DNA of 11,185 nucleotides from Candidatus Hodarchaeota archaeon (GCA_016839785.1 JAEOTQ010000018.1:1-11185); one strand, 5' to 3'. Shown: positions 274-10,751, counted from the stretch's first letter. Notes: generated by a model from the sequence alone, not told the origin. Numbers and translations are program-made.

Positions 274-594
274 ATTATCATAATCAAAAGCAGTTCTCTG
301 AAGATCGAAATAAGATTGACAGAAGAACGCTGGAATCATATTATTGAAGCTCACCCAGAATTAAAAAACTTTAAAGAATATTTAATGAAAACAGTTAGAA
401 CACCTGATAATCTATTCTACAATGAATTTACAAATCAATACATATTTATAAAAGAATTTGATGTGTTTATTACAGATAATTTATTAGTTTATGTAAAAAA
501 ATTAAATGGAGAAGGTTTTATTATCACCTGTCATCCTATATCAATTAAAAGAATCAGCAGGAGAATAAAAAAATGGAAAAAACTAAACCCTTGA
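274..594 (+). CDS. Putative type II toxin (RelE/BrnT/PBECR-like small RNase, RLTEERWxHIxxxHPE type)
   Basis: Motif ERWNHIIEAHPE and C-terminal beta strands (LLVYVK...GFIIT), basic tail, overlaps the downstream DUF2283 gene. The track starts at TTG 316, but the frame is open back to 268 and AGGTGA at 262-267 points to an ATT start at 274. Confidence 0.7.
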   Translation: MIIIKSSSLKIEIRLTEERWNHIIEAHPELKNFKEYLMKTVRTPDNLFYNEFTNQYIFIKEFDVFITDNLLVYVKKLNGEGFIITCHPISIKRISRRIKKWKKLNP

Positions 595-842
595 TTCGGA
601 TGCAGATTGAGGCAACTGAAATAATTAATAGGATTTCAACTAAGTATTCTTTATCGCTACCTCATGAAATCATCAGAATGGGTTACGATGCAGAAGCTGA
701 TGTGCTTTACGCACATTTTGAAGCAAATGCCGAGGCAGTAGATAGTGATATACTTGAAGCAAATGAAAATATTATTTTAGGATTAAATAAAAAAAGCAAA
801 ATGGTCAGAATCACTATTTTAAATGCCTCTCTTTTTAATTAA
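573..842 (+). CDS. DUF2283 domain protein (putative antitoxin partner)
   Basis: YDAEADVLYAHF...DSDILE..NIILGLNKKSKMVRITILNAS fits the DUF2283 pattern YDxExDxLYxxF...IxIxxAS. Overlaps the upstream gene by 22 nt. Confidence 0.8.
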   Translation: MEKTKPLIRMQIEATEIINRISTKYSLSLPHEIIRMGYDAEADVLYAHFEANAEAVDSDILEANENIILGLNKKSKMVRITILNASLFN

Positions 843-953: not shown

Positions 954-2651
954 TTATTTATTCCACTGACTATCCCTGAATCCCTTTACTCTCGGTTTCT
1001 TCTGTTTTCTAGCTAATAAAAAACCAATGGAGAGGATTAATAATCCTACGACAGAAATCGAGTATCCAAAACCAGGAGTGAGTGTTATCGATCCAGTGGA
1101 AGTTGTTAAGAGAACGCTGGAAGTTGTTGAGGTTTCATTGGGGATTGGATAGGCATGCAGGTCAATAACTTTTTCCAATGCTTTCGAATTTACATCTATC
1201 ACTGAGACACTATCTGAGCGTATATTAAGACTATAAATCTTACTATAATTATTATTTGCAAATATGAAATTTGGAAAATATCCCTCCAAGGGGATAACCC
1301 GCTCTAGAAACTGTTCGGTGTTTAAGTCATAAATACTGATAAAACTTCGATCAAGATGGGCAATGTAGAGATAGTTTTCTTTGTATAAAAAGACGTCAAT
1401 TTTTGGAAAAGTCTGCAGATGAGACAACCAAGGAATTCCACTTCCTGGATCTCTAATATAGAAAAAGATTGATAGATCTAGTCCTAACCGAAAGAACTGA
1501 GCGGAATTGAAGAGAAGCTGATTCTGAATATATTCTTTAACACGACGAGATATTTCTTTGACACTCAAATTAATGTGCTTGCTAAAATTCTGCAAGGATG
1601 AAAAATTCGTAACAAGAAATGCATCTAGAATTTTGAGATCTGCAGGTGTCAAACTTCGAAATTGGAGTTTCTCAACTCTTGTTTCTAATGCAAGATTAGG
1701 TGCAGACTTTTGGAAGTTTATTTCAGCCTGGCTATGAAATATTGGCGGAGGATGGACCCATCCTTCTTTAAATCTACTTAACCCATCAAAACACCATGAA
1801 ATTATTCGTTGATCAATAGGTACAGAGTATTCAGGGCTAATTTCATTTATCAACGCATCTATCAACAAGGGTTGAGAAATTGGAATTTGGATAATACTGA
1901 ATTTCCTCCGAAAAAAATTTGCAGTATACAGCAGATACTGTGAGTATGAATCAGGAAACGGAGATAAGTGGTGGAGGAGTAGAGTTTCATATCCTAATCG
2001 TGCCATATCTATATAACGGGCAATATTGATTATATCAAGCATAGTTATCTGACTCATCCGTCGTGTGACTGTACTCAAAGATTTATTGACAAATTCAGCA
2101 ATATCATGGAAAGATGGTCCTCGAATAAATTGGGCTGGAATTAGCTCCTTCTTTGATAAAACACAAATGGCCTTAAATAGGTCAATATCTAATCTATCAA
2201 CAGGAATTGTTATATTGAGTAGAGGAGCGACAATTAATTCGACCAATTGAGAAAAATTGAGTTGTGATTCCTCCTTTTGCAAGCGATTGAGGTAGGATAT
2301 TAACATAGAGTCATCTTGCTTAATAATTTCATAAATTACAAGGTGACGAGGAATCGTAAGTACTCCTCCTCTATCTTTAACCTCCATTAATATCGACGAG
2401 ATGTTCTTTGTAAATGATTCTATCTTTTTCAAAAATCCTACTTCTTTATTTCGTTCATAGAAAGGTAGAGTATGGTTTTTCAATAGTTTTCGTGAGATTT
2501 CATCAATATCGATCAATGCTGCTTCTTTTGCCTGATCGTGTACTTCGAGCCATAATTCTACAAACTCTAACACAAATTTAGACTCTGGTGAACTATTTTG
2601 ATGTTGGATATTTCGGACTTGATTTAGGAGAGAGGATAGCTGTTTGGACAT
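954..2651 (-). CDS. Paralog A: tandem Lrp/AsnC-like HTH protein fused to a YVTN-type beta-propeller fragment, S/T linker and PGF-CTERM-like anchor (chimeric)
   Basis: Residues ~1-421 align by eye with paralogs B and C (FVLEFVELW..VH, LPFY, IDMARLGYE, FRSLTPADLKIL, QFFRLGLDLSIFF, TFPKIDVF). The remainder reads YLYIAH..SFISIYD, KIYSLN..SDSVSVID, TSTTSS.., TPGF, a TM helix and RKQKK. Confidence 0.75.
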   Translation of the reverse strand: MSKQLSSLLNQVRNIQHQNSSPESKFVLEFVELWLEVHDQAKEAALIDIDEISRKLLKNHTLPFYERNKEVGFLKKIESFTKNISSILMEVKDRGGVLTIPRHLVIYEIIKQDDSMLISYLNRLQKEESQLNFSQLVELIVAPLLNITIPVDRLDIDLFKAICVLSKKELIPAQFIRGPSFHDIAEFVNKSLSTVTRRMSQITMLDIINIARYIDMARLGYETLLLHHLSPFPDSYSQYLLYTANFFRRKFSIIQIPISQPLLIDALINEISPEYSVPIDQRIISWCFDGLSRFKEGWVHPPPIFHSQAEINFQKSAPNLALETRVEKLQFRSLTPADLKILDAFLVTNFSSLQNFSKHINLSVKEISRRVKEYIQNQLLFNSAQFFRLGLDLSIFFYIRDPGSGIPWLSHLQTFPKIDVFLYKENYLYIAHLDRSFISIYDLNTEQFLERVIPLEGYFPNFIFANNNYSKIYSLNIRSDSVSVIDVNSKALEKVIDLHAYPIPNETSTTSSVLLTTSTGSITLTPGFGYSISVVGLLILSIGFLLARKQKKPRVKGFRDSQWNK

Positions 2652-2674
2652 CTTTCTAAATATAGGTTAATCAT

Positions 2675-2682
2675 CTTTAAAA
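2675..2682 (-). promoter_or_regulatory. Putative TATA box (TTTTAAAG) of paralog A
   Basis: 24-31 nt upstream of ATG 2651 with no obvious SD, consistent with a leaderless archaeal transcript. Confidence 0.45.
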
Positions 2683-2688
2683 CTTAAT

Positions 2689-2724
2689 CTAAAATCTACA
2701 TCCGAGTATTTATGCAGATTTTAG
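2689..2724. promoter_or_regulatory. Inverted repeat CTAAAATCTACAT-N10-ATGCAGATTTTAG (operator or hairpin)
   Basis: 13-bp arms with 12/13 complementarity, just upstream of the paralog A TATA box and downstream of the paralog B stop. Confidence 0.5.
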
Positions 2725-2788
2725 TCTAAAAGGGAGTCAAGAACAATTTGAAATCCCAAAGTACGAACTCAAACCTGATAGTTTATGT

Positions 2789-4228
2789 TCAATTATGATG
2801 ATACGTATCTTTTAATGAAATTCCCCATCTAAAATGATCGACCATGCTGTAGATTTTAAAATAAATCTTCACATCATAATTCTTACGGATATAGTCAACT
2901 TTTCTGGAAAAAGGTTTAATCCACTTATGTGGTAGTTTCACATATCCAAAGTAATAGTTTGGGCTCTCATCCTGTTGATAAAAGACATCTACTTTGGGAA
3001 AGGTTAGCAAATGGTTTATCCAAGGAATTTCACTGTTATTATCTGAAATGAAGAAGAACACTGATAAATCCAATCCAATATTGAAGAACTGGTATGTTTT
3101 AAAAATCAGATTTGCCTCTTGATATTCCTTCAGACGTTGGGATATTTCCATACGATTAACACTAATTGCTTTGCTTAAATGATCGTAATTTCTAAAACTT
3201 CCTTCTTGGACAAGAAAATCTAGTAGTTTGAAGTCAGCTCGAGATAATTTTCGAAAAGAGTCAAAGGCAGGACGAAGTGGGACTTCTAGATCTGGACTTG
3301 GGGTACTCACAGCCACTTGAGGTTTTGAGTTAAAGAAAGAAGGAGGGCCTGACCATAAGTCTTCCCCTGCAGATAATCCACTAATATTCCATGATGTAGT
3401 CCGGTTTACCAGTGGCTCATACATTATAGGCTGCAGTTCTTCTTGTAATACCATCTGTTCTTGAATCTGAGATGCAGGCATCTGAATCAAACTAAACGTG
3501 CCGATATCCATGTTTCCTGATAATAGTAGATTATTCCTGTATTCTTTTGGGAACTCTTCTTGATGGACTACGAGGAGAGATTCGTATCCAAGTTTTCCCA
3601 TATCAAGAAAGTGGTTCGCATGAACTAACTGCAAGAACCGGAAAACCTTCAATCTCCGAATAATAGTTCGTGTAGAAACCTTTAACAATTCCGCTAAAGA
3701 TTTGTTATCAGGATTCTTGTAAAGTAGTGCTTTTAAGGATTGGATTGATTGAAAGCCTTTTAATAATTGAATATCTACCTCATCTAAGGGAGGTACATAA
3801 TTTATTAATAAGGGAAAGATTTCTTCGAAGAGATCATCTTTTGTTTGGCTCATTAAATCCGTTTTTAGCTTCTTCAGAATACTAAAGAGGACGCTCTTTT
3901 TATGATTGGTAATTTCGTATGCGACCAGCTTTAATGGAAACATAATTCCACCACTATCACCCCATGTGAGGTACAGTGATGCGTATGAATCGATCCATCC
4001 CTCGAACTTTTGTAAATCACCCTTTCCCTTGTGGTTTTCGTAGAACGGTAATATATAAGGTGTCAGGAGCGATTTACATACATCGAGAGTATCCTCTAAA
4101 TTTGCTTTTGCAGTCACTTGGTGGATTTGATACCAGATATCTAGAAAATCTAAGACAAACTGGCCTGATTCATCCGCCCTATTTTGTCGGATAGTTTCCA
4201 ACATTTCTCGGATTGGACGCTCTGACAT
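2789..4228 (-). CDS. Paralog B: transcriptional regulator-like protein with N-terminal helical domain and two tandem Lrp/AsnC-type HTH(+RAM-like) units
   Basis: HTH1 at ~aa148-215 (LDEVDIQLL...LAELLKVSTRTIIRRLK...LDMGKLGY). HTH2 at ~aa328-387 (LSRADFKLL...LSKAISVNRMEISQRLKEY...FFNIGL). Each is followed by beta/alpha segments. Confidence 0.8.
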   Translation of the reverse strand: MSERPIREMLETIRQNRADESGQFVLDFLDIWYQIHQVTAKANLEDTLDVCKSLLTPYILPFYENHKGKGDLQKFEGWIDSYASLYLTWGDSGGIMFPLKLVAYEITNHKKSVLFSILKKLKTDLMSQTKDDLFEEIFPLLINYVPPLDEVDIQLLKGFQSIQSLKALLYKNPDNKSLAELLKVSTRTIIRRLKVFRFLQLVHANHFLDMGKLGYESLLVVHQEEFPKEYRNNLLLSGNMDIGTFSLIQMPASQIQEQMVLQEELQPIMYEPLVNRTTSWNISGLSAGEDLWSGPPSFFNSKPQVAVSTPSPDLEVPLRPAFDSFRKLSRADFKLLDFLVQEGSFRNYDHLSKAISVNRMEISQRLKEYQEANLIFKTYQFFNIGLDLSVFFFISDNNSEIPWINHLLTFPKVDVFYQQDESPNYYFGYVKLPHKWIKPFSRKVDYIRKNYDVKIYFKIYSMVDHFRWGISLKDTYHHN

Positions 4229-4260
4229 CGCTCTCAGATGCTAAAACAGCCATATAAGAA

Positions 4261-4274
4261 TTTATAAGGCTTTG
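4261..4274 (-). promoter_or_regulatory. Putative BRE/TATA of paralog B (CAAAGC-CTTATAAA)
   Basis: TATA 33-40 nt upstream of ATG 4228. Mirrors CAAAGG-GTTTAAAT upstream of paralog C. Confidence 0.5.
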
Positions 4275-4276
4275 GG

Positions 4277-4324
4277 TTTCTCTAGAAAAACTAACGGTTT
4301 GTCTAGATAAAGTATCCGGATAAC
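4277..4324. promoter_or_regulatory. Three operator-like palindromic boxes: TTTCTCTAGAAAAA (4277-4290), TTTGTCTAGATAAA (4298-4311), AGTATCCGGATAAC (4311-4324)
   Basis: Palindromic consensus TTTNTCTAGANAAA with core spacings of 21 and 13 bp. The same spacing recurs in the spacer of pair C. Confidence 0.6.
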
Positions 4325-4370
4325 TGTTAAATGAGAAGAAAAATCGACTCAAAGTAAAATGGTGAAATTT

Positions 4371-4526
4371 ATGGACAAGAAATTAAGACTACGTGATAAA
4401 ACAAACTCTGCTGAACTCTTAGTACTAAAGATGCTTCCTCTGATATTCATGCTCCTCCTCTTCCTACTCAGCACATCCATTGGTGCTGGTATATCTGATG
4501 GGGGCCATTTACCGGGAATGAACTAA
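4371..4526 (+). CDS. Small secreted/membrane peptide precursor B, 51 aa: MDKKLRLRDKTNSAELLVLKMLPLIFMLLLFLLSTSIGAGISDGGHLPGMN
   Basis: GGTGA SD at 4361-4365, 5 nt before ATG. 21/51 ungapped identity and identical length to 6489..6644. Divergent from paralog B. Confidence 0.85.
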   Translation: MDKKLRLRDKTNSAELLVLKMLPLIFMLLLFLLSTSIGAGISDGGHLPGMN

Positions 4527-4584
4527 GATTTTTGCGTCGTTATTCAGTATATTAGATGTTCAAATTTAAAAGTTGGATAATAGA

Positions 4585-4604
4585 GAGTACATTTAGCTGT
4601 ACTC
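4585..4604 (+). terminator. Possible hairpin downstream of peptide B (GAGTACA-TTTAGC-TGTACTC)
   Basis: 7-bp perfect stem ~60 nt after the stop. A T5 tract also follows the stop at 4529-4533. Confidence 0.25.
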
Positions 4605-5014
4605 CCAAACTCTATGATTTTAGTGATTTTCTAAATTTATAGAATAAAATCCAGTCTTTTCAAAACTAATGGACATCTAGCATCCGAGATTAGGACTTAT
4701 ATCTACATTAGCTTCCCATAAATTTGGAGTTCCATTTAGCTTTTTATTAAATGAGGAGTTCAACAAGACCTCTCCATAGACAATCTATTTGAAATAAATC
4801 CTAGGTTTATTCTTTCCGATTCATTGCCTAAGTAATCAATCAGTTTTATGGTTCTAATGTTCTAAAAGAAATTTAGATTGATCAATACCAGTACATACTT
4901 CTTAGATGATTTTTCTCATCATTCTGCAATTTTTAAATCTGCTTAAGGAAAACTTTCATCATCAAGGTCGTTGTAATAGGTATCATCGTTCAGGAATCAT
5001 TTTTCTCTAAATTA

Positions 5015-5035
5015 TAAATCACCGACAAAACCCTA
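5015..5035 (+). repeat. Direct repeat copy 1 TAAATCACCGACAAAACCCTA
   Basis: 20/21 identical to 6218..6238 (first 17 nt exact). Both copies are preceded by AATCATTTTT 20-22 nt upstream. Confidence 0.75.
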
Positions 5036-5040
5036 TATCA

Positions 5041-5077
5041 AAAATTCAGTTACTTACACTAAGATCCAGTTACTTAC
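5041..5077 (+). repeat. Tandem direct repeat AA[A/G]AT[T/C]CAGTTACTTAC x2, 20-bp period
   Basis: 5041..5057 vs 5061..5077 match 15/17, with CAGTTACTTAC exact. Confidence 0.55.
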
Positions 5078-5448
5078 GAACTTCTATCCGAATTACTGAG
5101 GTCTCATCTTTTTATGAGTCGAATGGAATTTAACGCATTCAGATATAGAGATTATACTAAATTACAGAACAATTCCCAGTTATACAGATGGCAATAGAGT
5201 CCCTTTCTTCATACCTTTTCTTTATTTAAAGCATCTAGTACCCGCTTTAGCTCATTTTTTGTCCATTTCTGAGCTATTCTGCGTACTGCCTTATTTATAA
5301 TTCCCACGAGAACAATTACGGTTATGAGTTGTGGGATAGTTTTTTCACACATTTGGAGTTTTTTTCATATATATTATGACGTATCCAAGAATAATTCTCT
5401 GTTACAACTTCATTATAATGTAAAAGGGCTTTATGGGAGAGATTATGA

Positions 5449-6153
5449 TTGACTCATTCCCTTCCCTCCTCTTATTCTGCAGGTGTTTTTTCCGACCTTA
5501 AGACCAGTCGCGCTTGCCATGATATTTGCCCTTTGATGCTATGTCGAGTGATCAAGAAATATAATGGCATTCTTTTATTGAAACTATTGTTCCAAGAATA
5601 TTTTTCTCTCCCTGGAGTCCCCAGTCCTAACATCCCTTACTATACTCGTTCTGACCTTTTTTCCTTGGCAGTTAACCATTTTCGTGAGAAGCCGTCAGAA
5701 GATTCACTAGAAGAATTGGTAAGATACATTAATCAAAAGTCAGGGATGATTCTGATAATCCCCTCATCACATCCCGAGCATCGTGGTGTTCGTCCAACCA
5801 ATAGATATTGTCTCAATCCAGTAATTCTCAGAGATTTTGTCATTTTAAGGGAAAAAAGCCTGCGTTTCCCGTTGACATGTCCTTTTGGTAATGACGAAAA
5901 GGTTTTTCTCATTTTAAATTATCTCGCTGAACAGGGGAGCGCTTCAATCCAAGCCGTCCAACTACATTTCGGTTTTTGTCGCGATACAGCCTATCGCACC
6001 ATTAACCAAATGCATTTCCAACAATTGGTACGCAAAACCCATCAAAATGGAGCCAAATCCAAGCTTATCTCTCTTAACTCTGACCATTTCTTAATTAATG
6101 ACCTCTCATTTTCTGTGACAAAAAATCCCTTAATTCAGGAGAAATTAGCTTAG
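5449..6153 (+). CDS. Hypothetical protein with C-terminal winged HTH
   Basis: 234-aa ORF. ILNYLAEQGSASIQAVQLHFGFCRDTAYRTINQMHFQQLVRKTHQNGAKSKLISL fits a DeoR/MarR-like wHTH. Start codon uncertain (TTG). Confidence 0.6.
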   Translation: MTHSLPSSYSAGVFSDLKTSRACHDICPLMLCRVIKKYNGILLLKLLFQEYFSLPGVPSPNIPYYTRSDLFSLAVNHFREKPSEDSLEELVRYINQKSGMILIIPSSHPEHRGVRPTNRYCLNPVILRDFVILREKSLRFPLTCPFGNDEKVFLILNYLAEQGSASIQAVQLHFGFCRDTAYRTINQMHFQQLVRKTHQNGAKSKLISLNSDHFLINDLSFSVTKNPLIQEKLA

Positions 6154-6217
6154 ATAATTATTTCTTAGCTTTAACATGAGTGAATGATGAGGAAAAATCA
6201 TTTTTTTCCGCTTTTTG

Positions 6218-6238
6218 TAAATCACCGACAAAACACTA
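6218..6238 (+). repeat. Direct repeat copy 2 TAAATCACCGACAAAACACTA
   Basis: Matches 5015..5035. An inverted partial copy (GTGTTTCGTCGG, 11/12) lies at 6328..6339. Confidence 0.75.
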
Positions 6239-6488
6239 GTTCGAAGATGTGTAGTGTAAGATCAGTATGAGAATATTACCTTTCTTATCATGTACCAGAT
6301 TTACTCGAAAAGTAGTAAATAATTTCTGTGTTTCGTCGGGAAATGGGCATTTTGAGTTGTCAAATTAACAATTGTTAACAGAAAGAAACTTGTTACTATT
6401 TAAAGTCAACAGAAAATCGTGTAATAAATCTGTATCAGAATTCATGATTAGGATCCTAAATTTTACTTATTAGGCTCTTATTTCAATT

Positions 6489-6644
6489 TCAACATGTAGG
6501 AGGAGCAGCACCACCGCTGGGAGCGCCTGATCCTATGACAAAGGACATTACATAGAGTAATAGCAGAAACAGGATAGGTAACATCTTCCACAAGGTAATA
6601 TCTACATTTCCAGAGATTTTTCGTGTTCTTAATTTCTTTTCCAT
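6489..6644 (-). CDS. Small secreted/membrane peptide precursor C, 51 aa: MEKKLRTRKISGNVDITLWKMLPILFLLLLYVMSFVIGSGAPSGGAAPPTC
   Basis: GGTGA SD (6651-6655, minus strand) 6 nt before ATG. Paralogous to 4371..4526. Divergent from paralog C. Confidence 0.85.
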   Translation of the reverse strand: MEKKLRTRKISGNVDITLWKMLPILFLLLLYVMSFVIGSGAPSGGAAPPTC

Positions 6645-6684
6645 TTATTTTCACCATTTAATTCTTAGATTCGTTATTTAGAGA

Positions 6685-6732
6685 GATACCCGAAGATTTT
6701 TACTAGATAAATCATTCGAGTTTCCGATCAAA
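6685..6732. promoter_or_regulatory. Operator-like boxes of pair C (minus strand: TTTGATCGGAAACT, TTTATCTAGTAAAA, AATCTTCGGGTATC)
   Basis: Cores at 6723-6728, 6702-6707 and 6689-6694 give the same 21/13-bp spacing as pair B. A 32-nt block is 22/32 identical to 4296..4327. Confidence 0.55.
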
Positions 6733-6744
6733 TATGACCCTAAT

Positions 6745-6758
6745 CAAAGGGTTTAAAT
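6745..6758 (+). promoter_or_regulatory. Putative BRE/TATA of paralog C (CAAAGG-GTTTAAAT)
   Basis: TATA 28-35 nt upstream of ATG 6786 with no SD, so probably leaderless. Confidence 0.55.
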
Positions 6759-6785
6759 GTTGTTATAGTTACACTAGCTCTTATA

Positions 6786-8228
6786 ATGGTTCCTTCCCCC
6801 CAACAGCAGCTAGACTTCAATCAGATCCGACAAAATACTGTTGGTCAACATGTGGAGCCGTTAGTCCTAGATTTCTTAGAAATCTGGTGGAATATTCATT
6901 CTGACGCTGCATCTTTATCTATGAAAGATATTCCTGAGTATGCTAGTAGTCTGCTTCAATCCTTTACGCTACCCCTGTATAATCAATATAAGAACACGAA
7001 GCTCTTCCATAAGTATGATGCCTGGATCAAGGATTTTTCTGCCCTTGGAATCTCTTGGCGTAATGGGGTAATCATGTTCCCTTTACGCTTGATCACATAC
7101 GAAGTTAATTCCCATCAGGACCAATTACTTGAGTATTACATCAATCGCCTACAAACAGGTCAATTACAAGGCACACAAAAGGAACTATTTGATTTCCTCT
7201 TTCCCCGCCTCATTATTGCCTCGGTTCCTTTGAAATCAGTTGATATTTTTCTTATGAAATCATTACTTGAAGCTGATCAGGGGAATTTTAATTATTTTAA
7301 AGGCTTAGAATTGATTGCCCAGGCTAAGCTCACAAATACATCCGTTCGTACTGTCAAGCGTCGAATGAAGCTTCTCAATTTCTCCCAAATCCCGATTCCT
7401 GTCTATTTCTTAGATATGGCTGCATTGGGATATGAGACTTACATAATTTCTCATTTCAATAATATTCCCGAAAAAATTTCACCGTGGGTATTACATTCTA
7501 TTGATTTAACGATCAGTCAATTCAGTCTCCTTCAATTACCTTTAAGAAATCCCCGCCTTTATAAGAACGTCGAGGATCAGTTGGAACCTCTAATATTTTC
7601 CCCGTTATCCGAAAGGATTCATTCCTGGAATTTATCAGGATTAGATGAGGGAAAAGATGCTTGGAAGACTCCACCCTCTTTTGTACATACCTATCCTACG
7701 AGGGATTTGGCTACTCCCTCCCCACATCTCAAGATGTTGCTTCAACCCCAATTTGATCGATTTCGTGACCTAACTTCCCCTGATATCAAACTCATCGAAT
7801 TTATCACTACACAAGGCACCGTTTCTAGTGTTAAGAAGCTCAGTCGGATTCTAAGAATGACCGTGCCTGATATTACAGAAAAAATGAAAGAATTTCAGCA
7901 GCAAAGACTGATTCTTCGGACTATCCAATTCTTCAATATTGGTCTTGATCTGAGTTTATTTTTCTTTATTTCTGCTCCAAAAAGCGTCGACATCGACTGG
8001 GCGACTTTATTCACAACTTTTGCTAAAGTAGATGTTTTTTACGATACTTCTACTGACGTAGATCTGTATTTTGGCTTTTTAAAACTACCTGTTAAATTCT
8101 ATAAAGATTTCACTCAAAAGGTCGCTGCCGTCAAGAAAGAATTCCCTGATATTAAATTTTATTATACTGTTGAACCCGCTGATATTACTCGCTGGAACCT
8201 TTCTCTTTCTGATACGTATAGTGGCTAA
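6786..8228 (+). CDS. Paralog C: tandem Lrp/AsnC-like HTH regulator-like protein
   Basis: Colinear with paralog B over its full length: VLDFLxIWxxIH, IMFPLxLxxYE, FLDMxxLGYE, SWNxSGLxxGxDxWxxPPSF, QFFNIGLDLSxFFFIS, YFGxxKLP, RWxxSLxDTY. Confidence 0.8.
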   Translation: MVPSPQQQLDFNQIRQNTVGQHVEPLVLDFLEIWWNIHSDAASLSMKDIPEYASSLLQSFTLPLYNQYKNTKLFHKYDAWIKDFSALGISWRNGVIMFPLRLITYEVNSHQDQLLEYYINRLQTGQLQGTQKELFDFLFPRLIIASVPLKSVDIFLMKSLLEADQGNFNYFKGLELIAQAKLTNTSVRTVKRRMKLLNFSQIPIPVYFLDMAALGYETYIISHFNNIPEKISPWVLHSIDLTISQFSLLQLPLRNPRLYKNVEDQLEPLIFSPLSERIHSWNLSGLDEGKDAWKTPPSFVHTYPTRDLATPSPHLKMLLQPQFDRFRDLTSPDIKLIEFITTQGTVSSVKKLSRILRMTVPDITEKMKEFQQQRLILRTIQFFNIGLDLSLFFFISAPKSVDIDWATLFTTFAKVDVFYDTSTDVDLYFGFLKLPVKFYKDFTQKVAAVKKEFPDIKFYYTVEPADITRWNLSLSDTYSG

Positions 8229-8389: not shown

Positions 8390-9796
8390 ATGAGTGATGA
8401 ATTAAAACCTGAACCGATCGAATGGAGTATATCTCTTCGAAATAAAATAACTTTTTCTTTGGGTGAAATCGGAGATGGAGTAGCTTATCAAACATTTTCA
8501 TTTCTGATCTTCACATTTTATTTTACGGTAGTTCGGTTACCAGTCTTATGGATAAGTGGAGGATTTATCATCTGGTCTTTCTGGAATGCAGTTAATGACC
8601 CTCTCATTGGGATCTTATCTGATAAAACGCATACTCGCTGGGGTCGACGTTTTCCTTGGATGATGGGAGCCACCATTCCCCTTGCAATTGTAATGGTACT
8701 ATTATTCCTTCCTCCTATGTCATCTGATACTGTTAATTTTGCTTATTTTCTCTTCATCTTATTTCTCTTTGATACCGTTTATACAGCTTTTAACCTCAAT
8801 TATAATGCAATGTGGTCTGAAATGTTTCTTTCGACTAAGGATCGGAGTGAAGTTGGCCAAATGCGAGGAATTTTCGTTATTATTGCATTAGTTTTTGCAT
8901 TCCTCCTTCCTACCATTCTCATTGAAGATTTGACAAATCAGTTTGGCTACGATTATACTCAGAGTCAATATATTCTAGTCGGGATTCTGGCAGCTATTAT
9001 CATTGTCCTTTCGTATTCCATCGTCTTAAAATGGGGAGCAAAAGAGCGAAAAGAATTTATCAAAGACTCAGCGACGGCCCCCTCCTACATGGAAGCACTA
9101 CGATATACATTCAAGAATAAGGCCTTTCGATTCTTTGCGATAGCAGCTTTAGCTACTTGGATCTGTAATGGAATACTTCCAACCGTCATTCCTCTTTTTG
9201 CCACTTATGCTCTGAACATAGCTGAGGAAGATTCAATCCTGATTGGTGTTTTACTTCTTGTAGGATTCCTTGTAGGAGCCATATCCATCCCTTTTTGGAC
9301 AAAGATTCGCCAAACACGAGGTGCACGTACTACTGGTATGCTGGTTTTCATTAGCTGGGCAATAGGTCTACTTATTTTCATGTGGTCTTTTGATCTAGTG
9401 TCAGGTCTAGTAACAATGGCTTTAGTGGGAATTGGGCTTGGGGGAAGTATTTATTTTTATGACCAGATTATTGCTGAAATTATTGACGATGATGAGCTTC
9501 GGTATGGCACACGTCGCGCTGGGGGTTATTATGGGGCGATTTCATTCGTTATTCGCCTCTCTGGAGTAGTAAATTTCTTTATTATTGGAATCGTATTTTC
9601 TGGTACAGAATGGTCTAAGTTTACCCCAAACCCAAGTGTAGATGTGATTTGGGGTCTTCGGTTTCTGATAGGTATTTTTCCCGCACTAGTTCTCATACTA
9701 GGCTTGATAAGTCTGTATTTCTATCCTATCCATGGCGAATATCTAGAGAAAATGAGGAGTAGTGTTACAGAAGTTCATATTAAGAAACGAGAGTAA
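8390..9796 (+). CDS. MFS transporter, GPH (MelB/MFS_2-like) cation symporter family
   Basis: WNAVNDPLIGILSDKTHTRWGRRFPW motif, IIAEIIDDDELRYGTRRAGGYYG motif and about 12 hydrophobic segments. Confidence 0.92.
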   Translation: MSDELKPEPIEWSISLRNKITFSLGEIGDGVAYQTFSFLIFTFYFTVVRLPVLWISGGFIIWSFWNAVNDPLIGILSDKTHTRWGRRFPWMMGATIPLAIVMVLLFLPPMSSDTVNFAYFLFILFLFDTVYTAFNLNYNAMWSEMFLSTKDRSEVGQMRGIFVIIALVFAFLLPTILIEDLTNQFGYDYTQSQYILVGILAAIIIVLSYSIVLKWGAKERKEFIKDSATAPSYMEALRYTFKNKAFRFFAIAALATWICNGILPTVIPLFATYALNIAEEDSILIGVLLLVGFLVGAISIPFWTKIRQTRGARTTGMLVFISWAIGLLIFMWSFDLVSGLVTMALVGIGLGGSIYFYDQIIAEIIDDDELRYGTRRAGGYYGAISFVIRLSGVVNFFIIGIVFSGTEWSKFTPNPSVDVIWGLRFLIGIFPALVLILGLISLYFYPIHGEYLEKMRSSVTEVHIKKRE

Positions 9797-10133
9797 TAAA
9801 TCTTGGATTCGGAGGGAACTAACTTAGATTTCTGATCAGAGAGCGACATAAGGAATTTTGCACTCTAACAAATCTCCTTACATATAATGGAAATGATTAG
9901 CTTTCAGAAATATAGAATAATTTATTATTAACACTCTGTTACCCATGTCACTCACATAGTTATCCTATAGTCTTATATTTCTTTAGCTAATTTTTGAAAT
10001 TCTCCATGAATTATCGAACCAAACAAGAATTTATAAGGAACATAATTCTCCAATCACTTAGTGTCCTGACAATTAACAAGTAACGATTTTTTGTTGGTAA
10101 AAACTTAATTCCTAAATTTTGAAGGAAGTAAAT

Positions 10134-10751
10134 ATGCAAGAAAATACCACTAATTTACGAATTTATGGCCCACAGATGCCAGAGGCCATTAAACGATTGC
10201 ATGATTTAGAAAAAAAGGTAATCGCTGAATTTCCAATTGAACGGGGTGAGATCAATATCGGTAAGTATGATTATATTTACCACTGGGAAAAGGCTCCCAG
10301 GCCTGAACCCCTATTAGCTCTGATAGAATATATCGATGAGGCATTTGCTGGTTTACCGACTCGTTATTCCATTACGACAGAGGGATATCACACTCGACGA
10401 GTAACAGCAGAGGCTGATCGTATGGGGTCAAATACAACCTTTAGCTTTGTTCGAATACATGGTCCAAGTATTTCGAAGGCTCTTCGAGCGATTGAAAAAG
10501 TAGTTGAAGATGTCGAGACCACAAATACAATTCAATCACTTAAATCATCTGTTCTTGTAGGAGAATGGGACTACGCATTTGAATGGGATCATTATCCTAC
10601 TATGGATGAGATTCATGATTTACTTGCCTCCGTTGATAAATTGGTGGGCCCCACTGGTGCTTTATACAAAATTTCTACATTGAAAAATGTTTATCGAACG
10701 GAAAAGCATGTAGACGACCATACTTCTGAAAACCTAATGGCGTTCTTATAA
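10134..10751 (+). CDS. Hypothetical protein made of two homologous ~75-aa repeats
   Basis: RIYGP...GKYDYIYHW...P...IDE.....TRYSITT vs RIHGP...GEWDYAFEW...P...VDK.....ALYKIST. ATG 10134 follows GAAGGA, whereas the track starts at TTG 10119. Confidence 0.75.
   Translation: MQENTTNLRIYGPQMPEAIKRLHDLEKKVIAEFPIERGEINIGKYDYIYHWEKAPRPEPLLALIEYIDEAFAGLPTRYSITTEGYHTRRVTAEADRMGSNTTFSFVRIHGPSISKALRAIEKVVEDVETTNTIQSLKSSVLVGEWDYAFEWDHYPTMDEIHDLLASVDKLVGPTGALYKISTLKNVYRTEKHVDDHTSENLMAFL

What the first reader, a model, noticed from the sequence alone, without database searches (positions are those of the whole stretch)
2789..8228. Candidate archaeal peptide-signalling system: two cognate small-peptide / tandem-Lrp regulator pairs
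Seen: two 51-aa ORFs absent from the ORF track (4371..4526 +, 6489..6644 -). Each is divergent from a ~480-aa paralogous regulator (2789..4228 -, 6786..8228 +), with spacers of 142 and 141 bp, an identical AAATGGTGAAA RBS context and conserved boxes. The peptides are 21/51 identical without gaps. Known: divergent or adjacent 'small exported peptide + cognate cytoplasmic regulator' pairs define bacterial RRNPP systems (SHP/Rgg, Phr/Rap, PapR/PlcR, AimP/AimR), whose receptors use TPR domains, and Lrp/AsnC RAM domains bind amino-acid ligands. Inference: this may be an analogous quorum-sensing/communication module built on a tandem Lrp-like receptor with a novel ~145-aa N-terminal domain, with two specificity types side by side. 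I know of no described archaeal system with this architecture.
Basis: partly seen in the sequence, partly recalled or inferred. Interest (0 to 1): 0.92.

Follow-up and report, generated by a model that had tools for sequence, protein, structure and literature searches.

The report
Asgard peptide and regulator gene pairs
Two neighbouring gene pairs, each a tiny secreted-looking peptide gene beside a large DNA-binding-type regulator, belong to a family conserved across one order of Asgard archaea and may be a peptide-based cell-to-cell signalling system of a kind not described in archaea.

Summary
Both 51-aa ORFs exist, are paralogous (21/48 identical), and each lies 142 or 141 bp divergent from a ~480-aa paralogous protein (38% identical).

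The pairing is far beyond chance:
- In the window's own genome, all 7 peptide-family ORFs lie next to regulator paralogs.
- Across 22 genomes of one genus, 52 of 63 full-length regulators have an adjacent peptide gene.
- All 3 testable distant homologues in a second family of the same order have one too.

The peptides have a basic N-region, a 13-aa hydrophobic core, a small-x-small site and a 5-16 aa Gly/Pro-rich tail. The signal part is under purifying selection (pN/pS 0.05-0.16) and the tail evolves fast (0.77).

The regulator is a tandem Lrp/AsnC fold behind an N-terminal helical domain with no fold match. Homologues are named Hodarchaeales/Heimdallarchaeota (Asgard).

The best reading is an RRNPP-like, non-homologous peptide-receptor signalling module (about 0.45). 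Peptide binding, export, cleavage and expression are not shown. The rivals are an uncleaved membrane microprotein partner and a plain locally regulated secreted peptide.

The parts
2789..4228 (-). Regulator 1 (479 aa): N-terminal helical domain (~1-145) followed by two Lrp/AsnC-like modules (~148-280 and ~320-460)
   Evidence: ORF. AF2 model with pLDDT 90.3. Profile hits to solved Lrp/AsnC regulators on both halves. Foldseek top hit is the tandem Lrp-fold protein NirDL, E 6e-8.
4229..4370 (.). 142-bp divergent intergenic region 1, with a bipartite box at 4303-4321 and GGTGA at 4361-4365
   Evidence: The box recurs at the same relative place in other pairs.
4371..4526 (+). Peptide gene 1 (51 aa): basic n-region (1-20), hydrophobic core plus small-residue c-region (21-40), inferred tail 41-51 (nt 4491-4523)
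6489..6644 (-). Peptide gene 2 (51 aa), same layout; inferred tail is residues 41-51 (nt 6524-6492)
6645..6785 (.). 141-bp divergent intergenic region 2, with a bipartite box at 6688-6706 (- strand) and GGTGA at 6655-6651
6786..8228 (+). Regulator 2 (480 aa), paralogue of regulator 1 (38% identity)
954..2651 (-). Third paralogue (565 aa) without a peptide gene of its own, 137 bp downstream of regulator 1 on the same strand. The family profile covers only positions 7-433 of 480. The C-terminal ~135 aa is unrelated: a beta-propeller repeat followed by a hydrophobic tail.

Best explanation
The window holds two copies of an order-specific two-gene module, plus one peptide-less regulator paralogue. 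Each module has two genes.
(a) A ~480-aa cytoplasmic protein built from an unmatched N-terminal helical domain and two fused Lrp/AsnC modules (wHTH + RAM, twice), which form an intramolecular pseudo-dimer.
(b) A divergently transcribed ~50-aa pre-peptide gene.

Proposed mechanism:
1. The pre-peptide is inserted or exported by the Sec pathway, N-terminus inside. This is inferred from its layout: a basic ~20-aa n-region, a 13-aa hydrophobic core and a small-x-small c-region.
2. Signal peptidase I cuts after the c-region and releases a 5-16 aa Gly/Pro-rich acidic tail. The inferred 11-aa tails are ISDGGHLPGMN for pair 1 and APSGGAAPPTC for pair 2.
3. The tail accumulates outside the cell and is taken up again, for example by one of the genome's oligopeptide-type ABC importers.
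4. It binds its cognate regulator. The regulator occupies the bipartite box just upstream of the peptide gene's promoter and changes transcription of the peptide gene, and possibly of other genes. This would be a closed autoinduction loop with several orthogonal types per genome.

Shown: the anatomy, the paralogy, the conserved pairing, coding selection, the fast-evolving tail, the fold of the regulator, and the conserved intergenic boxes.
Inferred: export, cleavage, re-import, peptide-regulator binding, DNA binding and the direction of regulation.
For: Pairing:
- In the own genome an improved peptide profile finds 7 ORFs (E <= 6.6e-12; the next best is 0.057). All 7 lie next to regulator paralogues.
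- Among 60 full-length regulators from 22 genomes, 48 have a divergent peptide gene, with a median spacer of 133 nt (range 62-225). One more has the peptide downstream on the same strand.
- Three further regulators add 2 divergent and 1 downstream case. The total is 52 of 63.
- In a second family of the order, 3 of 3 testable distant homologues (E 1e-16 to 2e-21 to the family profile) have a divergent small ORF with the same layout.

Coding and selection (6 orthologues, Nei-Gojobori pN/pS): n-region 0.11, core 0.16, c-region 0.05, tail 0.77, with pS of 0.36-0.50. The cognate regulators score 0.21.

Layout:
- 47 of 48 peptides have a small-x-small site after the core.
- K+R is 28% in the n-region against 2% in the tail.
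- The tail is 28% Pro and 18% Gly.
- An SD-like motif lies before 32 of 48 starts, against a 15.6% background.
- Secreted solute-binding proteins of the same genome carry similar core and c-regions.

Machinery in the genome: 14 SBP_bac_5 matches and one archaeal signal peptidase I. This is compatible but not specific.

Regulator: Lrp/AsnC profile hits on both halves (7fby E 8e-8 at 326-419; 2dbb E 4e-5 at 148-236). The tandem Lrp fold is confirmed (4ch7 E 6e-8, 351 columns).

Tail types follow regulator clades, and the two window pairs sit in different clades.

Boxes: 15 of 48 intergenic regions carry the loose CTAG...YCSG box, against 1.1% of random 175-nt genome windows. The box has two different half-sites, as expected for a pseudo-dimer with two unlike HTHs (my inference).
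Against: - No result shows that the peptide is exported, cut, re-imported or bound.
- The n-region is long (median 20 aa) and under strong purifying selection (0.11). A plain signal peptide does not need this, so it hints at a cytoplasmic role.
- The uncharged stretch (residues 21-40) is long enough to be a membrane anchor.
- A tail pN/pS of 0.77 is below 1, so relaxed constraint cannot be told from diversifying selection.
- Tails of different pairs in one genome share motifs: three tails in the own genome carry G-G/C-A-P-P. That limits the expected specificity.
- 11 of 63 regulators have no adjacent peptide gene, mostly members of tandem arrays.
- No transporter, protease or target gene is conserved beside the pairs.
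- The known ligands of RAM domains are amino acids, not peptides (established knowledge of the Lrp/AsnC family, recalled).
- The best fold match, NirDL, is an enzyme and not a regulator.
Confidence: 0.45

Rival explanations
1. Locally regulated secreted or surface peptide without feedback. The tandem-Lrp protein is an ordinary local transcription factor that controls its divergent neighbour. The neighbour encodes a small secreted or surface-exposed Gly/Pro-rich peptide with some other role, such as antimicrobial activity, adhesion or envelope function. The peptide is never sensed by the regulator, and the regulator responds to some other ligand, for example an amino acid.
For: Divergent TF-target pairs are common. 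Co-inheritance alone explains why tail types track regulator clades. Conserved boxes in the shared intergenic region fit simple cis-regulation. RAM domains classically bind amino acids (recalled). No dedicated import or processing gene lies nearby.
Against: Every peptide-family ORF in the own genome sits next to a regulator (7 of 7), and the pairing is kept down to about 20% regulator identity. Up to 7 separate pairs occur per genome. This is more typical of cognate ligand-receptor cassettes than of an effector with a housekeeping regulator. A product of only about 10 residues is short for an effector.
Confidence: 0.25
2. Uncleaved membrane microprotein partner. The 51-aa product stays in the membrane (N-terminus in, C-terminus out). 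Its conserved basic cytoplasmic N-segment binds the regulator, for example its N-terminal helical domain, and tethers or releases it in response to what the short external tail meets. This would be a two-piece trans-membrane signalling device.
For: The n-region is long (median 20 aa) and strongly constrained (pN/pS 0.11). The uncharged stretch of about 20 residues can span a membrane. The charge asymmetry fixes an N-in topology. The regulator has an extra N-terminal domain of unknown role.
Against: The c-region is the most constrained part (0.05), and 47 of 48 peptides have a small-x-small site. Both point to processing. A 5-16 aa external tail is very short for a sensor.
Confidence: 0.2
3. 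The tandem Lrp-fold protein is an enzyme or chaperone, like the siroheme decarboxylases NirDL and AhbA/B, that acts on the small peptide or recognises it as a substrate. The wHTH would serve as a peptide-recognition element, RiPP-like, and the protein would not be a DNA-binding regulator.
For: The best fold match is NirDL (E 6e-8). There is a weak AhbA match in NCBIfam (E 0.011).
Against: The AhbA score is 15.5 bits against a cut-off of 140. Sequence-profile matches are to Lrp/AsnC regulators. No modifying enzyme or haem-pathway gene is in the window. A peptide with a Sec-type signal is not a typical RiPP precursor (established knowledge, recalled).
Confidence: 0.05
4. The small ORFs are chance reading frames in conserved regulatory DNA and are not genes.
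For: They are short, and no transcript or protein evidence was obtained.
Against: pN/pS is 0.12 at pS 0.45 over the signal part. The frame is open and the n-h-c layout is kept in more than 50 loci across two families. Some are already called as hypothetical proteins in public annotations.
Confidence: 0.02

Closest known systems
RRNPP peptide-receptor quorum-sensing systems of Bacillota and their phages (Rap/Phr, NprR/NprX, PlcR/PapR, PrgX, Rgg/SHP, ComR/ComS, AimR/AimP)
   Same: - A small adjacent gene encodes a pre-peptide whose exported C-terminal part would be the signal.
- A cytoplasmic one-component receptor/regulator is encoded next to it. The gene order is divergent, as in many SHP/Rgg pairs (recalled).
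- There are many orthogonal pairs per genome, as reported for Paenibacillus (abstract of PMC7425212 in the listing).
- The variable signal part sits beside a conserved export part.
- Oligopeptide importers are present in the genome.
   Different: - The receptor has no TPR domain. It is a tandem Lrp/AsnC fold plus an unmatched helical domain.
- The host is an Asgard archaeon, not a Bacillota bacterium.
- The n-region of the pre-peptide is unusually long and conserved.
- No relative was found in viral contigs.
- No functional evidence exists.
Lrp/AsnC (feast/famine) transcription regulators of archaea and bacteria, e.g. PH0140 (7fby), PH0061 (2dbb), ST1022 (2efn), NMB0573 (2p5v)
   Same: Each half has a wHTH followed by an alpha-beta RAM domain. 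Profile E-values run from 8e-8 to 4e-5. Foldseek probability is 1.0 over 140-170 columns.
   Different: Two modules are fused in one chain behind a ~145-aa extra domain. Pfam HTH matches stay below the gathering scores for regulators 1 and 2. The proposed ligand is a peptide, not an amino acid. The protein is paired with a dedicated small ORF.
Siroheme decarboxylase NirDL / AhbA-AhbB (4ch7, 4czc, 4czd)
   Same: It is the only solved example found of two Lrp/AsnC modules in one functional unit, and the best structural match (E 6e-8, 351 aligned columns).
   Different: Identity is 11-13%. The NCBIfam AhbA score is far below the cut-off. There is no haem-pathway context. It has no N-terminal domain and no partner peptide.

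Membership tests
RRNPP quorum-sensing systems | Receptor with a TPR-type peptide-binding domain, usually behind an N-terminal HTH | tested here: not met
   No TPR family in Pfam at E <= 1. The C-terminal 330 aa is a tandem Lrp/AsnC fold. The N-terminal domain has no match above Z 5.0.
RRNPP quorum-sensing systems | Adjacent small gene for an exported pro-peptide | tested here: met
   52 of 63 regulators have an adjacent ~50-aa ORF with an n-h-c layout. Export itself is not shown.
RRNPP quorum-sensing systems | Mature peptide is re-imported and binds the receptor | not testable with these tools
   The co-fold gave no verdict and cannot be counted either way.
RRNPP quorum-sensing systems | Occurrence in Bacillota, their plasmids and phages | tested here: not met
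   Homologues are named Hodarchaeales/Heimdallarchaeota. The family is found only in one archaeal order among 400 genomes of the phylum. There is none in viral contigs.
Lrp/AsnC regulators | wHTH DNA-binding domain of the AsnC type | tested here: met
   At profile and fold level: PDB profile hits at 148-236 and 326-419. Pfam HTH_24 passes its cut-off only in the third paralogue (23.4 against 21.9 bits) and is below the cut-off in regulator 1.
Lrp/AsnC regulators | C-terminal RAM (alpha-beta sandwich) effector domain | tested here: met
   Foldseek alignments to full-length Lrp/AsnC chains cover 140-170 columns at probability 1.0. The secondary structure is beta-alpha-beta-beta-alpha-beta, twice.
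Lrp/AsnC regulators | Single ~150-aa module that assembles into dimers or octamers | tested here: not met
   There are two fused modules plus a 145-aa N-terminal domain in one 479-aa chain.
Siroheme decarboxylase (AhbA/B, NirDL) | Family score at or above the NCBIfam cut-off, and a haem-pathway context | tested here: not met
   AhbA scores 15.5 bits against a cut-off of 140. No haem-pathway family appears among the window's ORFs.
Sec-type signal peptide (on the small ORFs) | Basic n-region, hydrophobic h-region, and a c-region with small residues at -3 and -1 | tested here: met
   47 of 48 peptides have a small-x-small site. K+R is 28% in the n-region against 2% in the tail. No dedicated predictor such as SignalP was available, and cleavage is not testable here.
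Heimdall-CTERM / PGF-CTERM sorting signal (C-terminus of the 565-aa paralogue) | Match to NF045529 at or above its cut-off | tested here: inconclusive
   E 0.14, 12.7 bits against a cut-off of 24.

The most novel reading that the evidence does not exclude
Hodarchaeales, the Asgard lineage often placed closest to eukaryotes (recalled), run a peptide-based quorum-sensing system of their own invention. Sec-exported 5-16 aa Gly/Pro-rich peptides would be read inside the cell by tandem Lrp/AsnC receptors. Up to seven orthogonal peptide-receptor types would coexist per genome, diversifying by tandem duplication. This would be the first peptide pheromone system in Archaea and a new receptor class for peptide signals.
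Probability: 0.4. Interest if true: 0.95.

Novelty: categorically new. Interest (0 to 1): 0.85.

Why it matters
No peptide-based cell-cell signalling system turned up for archaea in six full-text searches. To my knowledge none is described (recalled).

If the reading is right, it adds three things:
- a new receptor class for peptide signals, a RAM-domain pseudo-dimer instead of TPR;
- convergent evolution of the 'small exported peptide plus cytoplasmic receptor' logic in a different domain of life;
- a concrete, synthesisable set of ligands and DNA sites for probing social behaviour in Asgard archaea, which are hard to grow.

Even under the rival readings, this is an undescribed, strongly conserved microprotein-regulator module. 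It is restricted to one order, is the target of repeated tandem duplication, and adds more than 50 members to the poorly charted archaeal small-protein repertoire.

Tried and rejected
**Co-folding.** Regulator alignment A2 plus peptide alignment A3 were co-folded. The result was no verdict (ipSAE 0.02 against a mark of 0.32) and the controls were not run. It is not counted for or against binding. The tool needs chains of 30 residues or more, so the tails alone could not be sent.

**Expression.** One metatranscriptome run (X1) held 5% of the sampled words. When laid, it gave two contigs at 6151-6385 and 6680-6903, each with 2 differing letters (about 99% identical). Neither covers a peptide ORF. 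They are Logan contigs without strand information, and DNA carry-over cannot be excluded. This gives no evidence on expression.

**ESM Atlas.** The N-terminal 145 aa gave no usable hit.

**Fold of the N-terminal domain.** The model has pLDDT 92.8. Foldseek found nothing at E <= 1e-3. VIA-align wide gave a best Z of 5.0, within the noise range for helical models. A ComR chain at rank 9 (Z 4.3) is within that noise and I give it no weight.

**Viral contigs.** No relative of the regulator was found.

**PADLOC and PHROGs.** Only weak HTH-level matches appeared, with the best E at 2e-5 to a CARF-HTH model on the third paralogue.

**Rfam and tRNA scans of the window.** Both found nothing.

**Regulon search.** The strict box regex gave 10 genome sites, 4 of them at pairs. 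My composition estimate of about 2.4 expected is a hand calculation and not a shuffle. The 6 other sites (C16:3420, C32:1243, C46:3127, C53:5147, C66:385, C155:4655) showed no interpretable common context.

**Box test in the window.** The test is circular, because the pattern was written from those two sites. The independent support is its recurrence in other loci.

**Conserved neighbours.** None was found, apart from a homologue of the 210-aa ORF after the regulator in two genomes.

**Tree.** The careful treekit search did not finish in 300 s, so the quick tree was used. My regex labels 'ADP' and 'GP' mislabelled several tails. I therefore rely on the printed tails and not on the label statistics.

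**Rows dropped.**
- The regulator tally used 60 of 67 unique ORFs, keeping those of 440 aa or more. Fragments at contig ends and one split copy were left out.
- Peptide hits longer than 90 aa were excluded.
- The peptide pN/pS used 6 of 7 orthologues. G051 was left out for its different length.
- A3 holds 39 of 51 unique peptides: those of 56 aa or less and non-identical, minus one.
- A2 holds 44 full-length sequences picked by hand from the hits.
- A4 holds 48 of 59 N-terminal stretches.

**Limits of the wider searches.** Supplements of papers were not seen. Those of 10.1101/2025.07.24.666526 may list which 'quorum sensing' KEGG genes are tandemly duplicated in Asgard genomes. I saw only the two passages returned.

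Full report
**1. What is in the window.**

ORF listing and direct reading confirm two 51-aa ORFs, at 4371..4526 (+) and 6489..6644 (-). Each is divergent from a ~480-aa ORF, at 2789..4228 (-) and 6786..8228 (+), with spacers of 142 and 141 bp.
- The peptides share 21/48 residues without gaps (E 7e-9).
- The large proteins share 38% identity over 467 residues (E 7e-113).
- Both peptide starts are preceded by AAATGGTGAAA. In pair 2 the ATG inside that element is out of frame with the peptide. The element is therefore conserved as DNA and reads as a GGTGA Shine-Dalgarno-like site 5-6 nt before the ATG.
- A third paralogue (954..2651, -; 565 aa) follows regulator 1 on the same strand after 137 bp and has no peptide gene of its own.
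- No Rfam family or tRNA is present.

**2. Is the pairing more than chance?**

The window is a whole 11-kb contig of a 4.04-Mb, 248-contig genome that is 84.5% complete. That genome holds 11 regulator paralogues, one of them split into two frames. They lie on five contigs.

Own genome:
- A profile of the two window peptides was searched against all 33,837 ORFs of 25-150 aa in the genome. After the queries, it returned three ORFs at E 4e-19 to 4e-15 and one at 0.023. All are divergent from other paralogues.
- With a profile of 50 peptides the genome has 7 hits (E <= 6.6e-12; the next best is 0.057). All 7 are adjacent to regulators.

Other genomes:
- The source names of homologues are Candidatus Hodarchaeales, Hodarchaeota or Heimdallarchaeota.
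- Among 83 genomes of the class, the single-protein query matched 22, all in one genus-level group (21 of 21 plus the own genome).
- I fetched every matched place and tallied unique ORFs. Of 60 full-length regulators, 48 have a divergent peptide gene, with a median spacer of 133 nt. One of the 12 others has the peptide 267 nt downstream on the same strand.
- A profile search over 400 genomes of the phylum matched 29. It covered all 21 of the genus and both genomes of a second family of the same order. The five matches outside the order cover only the C-terminal Lrp-like part.
- That search exposed three more regulators in the genus: 2 with a divergent peptide and 1 with a downstream peptide. 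The total is 52 of 63.
- It also exposed distant homologues in the second family. Three had enough upstream DNA to test, and all three have a divergent small ORF with a basic N-terminus, a hydrophobic stretch and a proline-rich tail.

The regulators without a peptide are mostly members of same-strand tandem arrays and cluster together in the tree.

**3. The small ORFs are coding genes with a signal-peptide layout.**

Layout of the 48 tallied peptides:
- n-region: median 20 aa, 28% K+R;
- hydrophobic core: 13 aa;
- c-region: polar and rich in small residues. A small-x-small site is present in 47 of 48;
- tail: 5-16 aa (median 10) after the last such site. It is 28% Pro, 18% Gly, 2% K+R and 10% D+E.

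The charge asymmetry predicts the N-terminus inside and the tail outside.

Six orthologues give the following pN/pS values, at pS 0.36-0.50:

| Segment | pN/pS |
|---|---|
| n-region | 0.11 |
| core | 0.16 |
| c-region | 0.05 |
| tail | 0.77 |

The frame is therefore under purifying selection, most strongly at the putative processing site, while the tail changes about six times faster. The cognate regulators score 0.21, with no outlying segment.

Further points:
- An SD-like motif precedes 32 of 48 inferred starts, against a 15.6% background.
- A profile search of the 5.8-billion-protein collection found only 12 relatives of 43-56 aa. None has a Pfam family, and those that are named are called 'hypothetical protein'.
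- The genome encodes an archaeal signal peptidase I and 14 matches to the oligopeptide-type binding-protein family. This is compatible with export, cleavage and uptake, but it is not specific.

**4. The large protein.**

Pfam gives only weak HTH matches.
- An alignment of 44 homologues matched solved Lrp/AsnC regulators with both halves: 148-236 to 2dbb at E 4e-5, and 326-419 to 7fby at E 8e-8.
- The AlphaFold2 model is confident (pLDDT 90.3, pTM 0.87).
- Its best Foldseek match is NirDL, a fusion of two Lrp/AsnC-fold modules (E 6e-8, 351 columns). A long list of single-module Lrp/AsnC regulators follows.
- It is not a siroheme decarboxylase by score or by context.
- Residues 1-145, modelled alone at pLDDT 92.8, have no convincing structural relative and no Atlas hit.
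- The family is small. Only 49 representatives reach E <= 1e-3 among 1.84 billion cluster representatives.
- No relative was found in viral contigs. Nothing significant appeared in the defence or phage family libraries.

**5. Intergenic signals.**

Within the clade that contains both window pairs, a bipartite box recurs between the genes. It reads CTAGAGAAA-n3-TCCGGAT or a variant. Its proximal end lies about 50 nt upstream of the peptide ATG in pair 1 and about 44 nt in pair 2, at 4303-4321 and 6688-6706 in the window.
- A loose form is present in 15 of 48 intergenic regions, against 1.1% of random 175-nt genome windows.
- A seven-genome orthologue group carries a variant with two short palindromes (TGTCTAGACA ... 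ATTCGAAT).
- The proline-tail clade has a different conserved box (CTTCATTAA..TTATCTA).

The box has two unlike half-sites and lies just upstream of an AT-rich TATA-like stretch before the peptide gene. This is what one would expect for a pseudo-dimer with two different HTHs acting as an upstream activator. The Lrp-family activator Ptr2 works this way (recalled, not checked here). This step is inference.

**6. Tail types and clades.**

In a quick maximum-likelihood tree of the 60 regulators, tail types follow regulator clades:
- a proline-rich 'ADP/APP...PPP' clade;
- a 'GGAPP..D' clade, which includes pair 2;
- a 'DGG/NGP..G..' clade, which includes pair 1;
- a 'GP....[IV]D' clade;
- an 'ADPLEGPYPPIGY' clade.

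Linkage predicts this pattern by itself, so it shows co-inheritance of cognate pairs and not co-adaptation. Most genomes carry one member of several clades, and the own genome has seven pairs.

**7. Mechanism and odds.**

The best-supported reading (0.45) is a peptide-receptor signalling cassette that works like the RRNPP systems of Bacillota. In it a Sec-exported, signal-peptidase-released 5-16 aa tail is re-imported and read by the cognate tandem-Lrp regulator, which controls the peptide promoter.

The RRNPP logic of secretion, maturation, re-import and binding to a cytoplasmic regulator is taken from the abstracts of PMC7564271 and PMC4873490, as seen in the listing, and from recall.

The cassette is not a member of that family. 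The receptor lacks TPR repeats and the host is an archaeon.

Two observations do not fit the simple version, and both feed the rival in which the microprotein stays in the membrane and its N-segment talks to the regulator (0.2):
- the n-region is long and strongly conserved;
- the uncharged stretch could serve as a membrane anchor.

Other readings:
- A plain local regulator of a secreted peptide with another role (0.25) cannot be excluded, because nothing here shows binding.
- An enzyme or RiPP-like reading is unlikely (0.05).
- A non-coding artefact is contradicted by the substitution pattern (0.02).

**8. Literature.**

Six full-text searches found no description of a peptide/Lrp system or of peptide quorum sensing in archaea (listings and abstracts only). 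The one paper that holds both 'Hodarchaeales' and 'quorum sensing' mentions only a KEGG enrichment among tandem duplicates (passages). Its supplements were not seen.

**9. Verdict.**

The architecture and conservation parts of the interpretation are supported. The signalling function remains a well-motivated inference with clear bench tests. The module is non-homologous to any described communication system, so I rate it categorically new in kind, with an interest of 0.85.

Noticed in passing
window 954-2651 (-): The third paralogue looks chimeric. The family profile covers only positions 7-433 of 480. The last ~135 aa carry a YVTN beta-propeller repeat (TIGR02276, E 1e-5, residues 471-502). 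A Ser/Thr-rich stretch and a PGF...hydrophobic...basic tail follow, with a sub-threshold Heimdall-CTERM match (E 0.14). That is the 3' end of a surface-protein gene fused to a cytoplasmic regulator without a signal peptide.
   Followed up: partly
own genome C234:3576-14008; G061:C14:63000-77500 (L041); G059:C14:1-7500 (L042): Regulator paralogues form same-strand tandem arrays in which only one member has a peptide gene. The copy at C234:12544-13991 is split into two frames. Contigs carrying the family in the own genome are short (5.7-15.6 kb).
   Followed up: partly
L064 (G061:C1) 1497-3350; L078 (G051:C296) 977-2934: A variant gene order: the peptide gene lies 267 or 239 nt downstream of the regulator on the same strand, instead of divergent.
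   Followed up: partly
window 5449-6153 (+): A 234-aa ORF with a weak DeoR/IclR-type HTH lies between the two pairs (Pfam E 3e-4, just below the cut-off). It has no paralogue in the genome and no homologue in the other loci.
   Followed up: partly
window 10119-10751 (+); L013 3291-3920; L014 3157-3786: A 210-aa protein of no known family has 87%-identical homologues directly downstream of the regulator-1 orthologues in two other genomes. It has two distant paralogues in the own genome, on C87 and C108.
   Followed up: no
window 316-594 (+) and 573-842 (+): An overlapping pair of small ORFs. The second is DUF2283 (E 5.7e-10). The layout looks like a toxin-antitoxin-type pair.
   Followed up: no
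own genome C16:3420-3438, C66:385-403, C53:5147-5165: Good copies of the bipartite box lie away from any regulator or peptide gene. The C53 site is about 190 nt upstream of a 437-aa ORF with a signal peptide. These may be regulon sites or chance matches.
   Followed up: partly
window 6151-6385 and 6680-6903: Two contigs of a metatranscriptome run match with 2 differing letters each (about 99% identical). The second starts inside the pair-2 intergenic region, 106 nt upstream of the regulator-2 ATG. The strand and the RNA origin are not established.
   Followed up: no
window 8390-9796 (+): An MFS_2 transporter (E 2e-64) lies directly downstream of regulator 2. It is not conserved next to the pairs elsewhere, apart from one weak 23%-identical match in L066.
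   Followed up: partly
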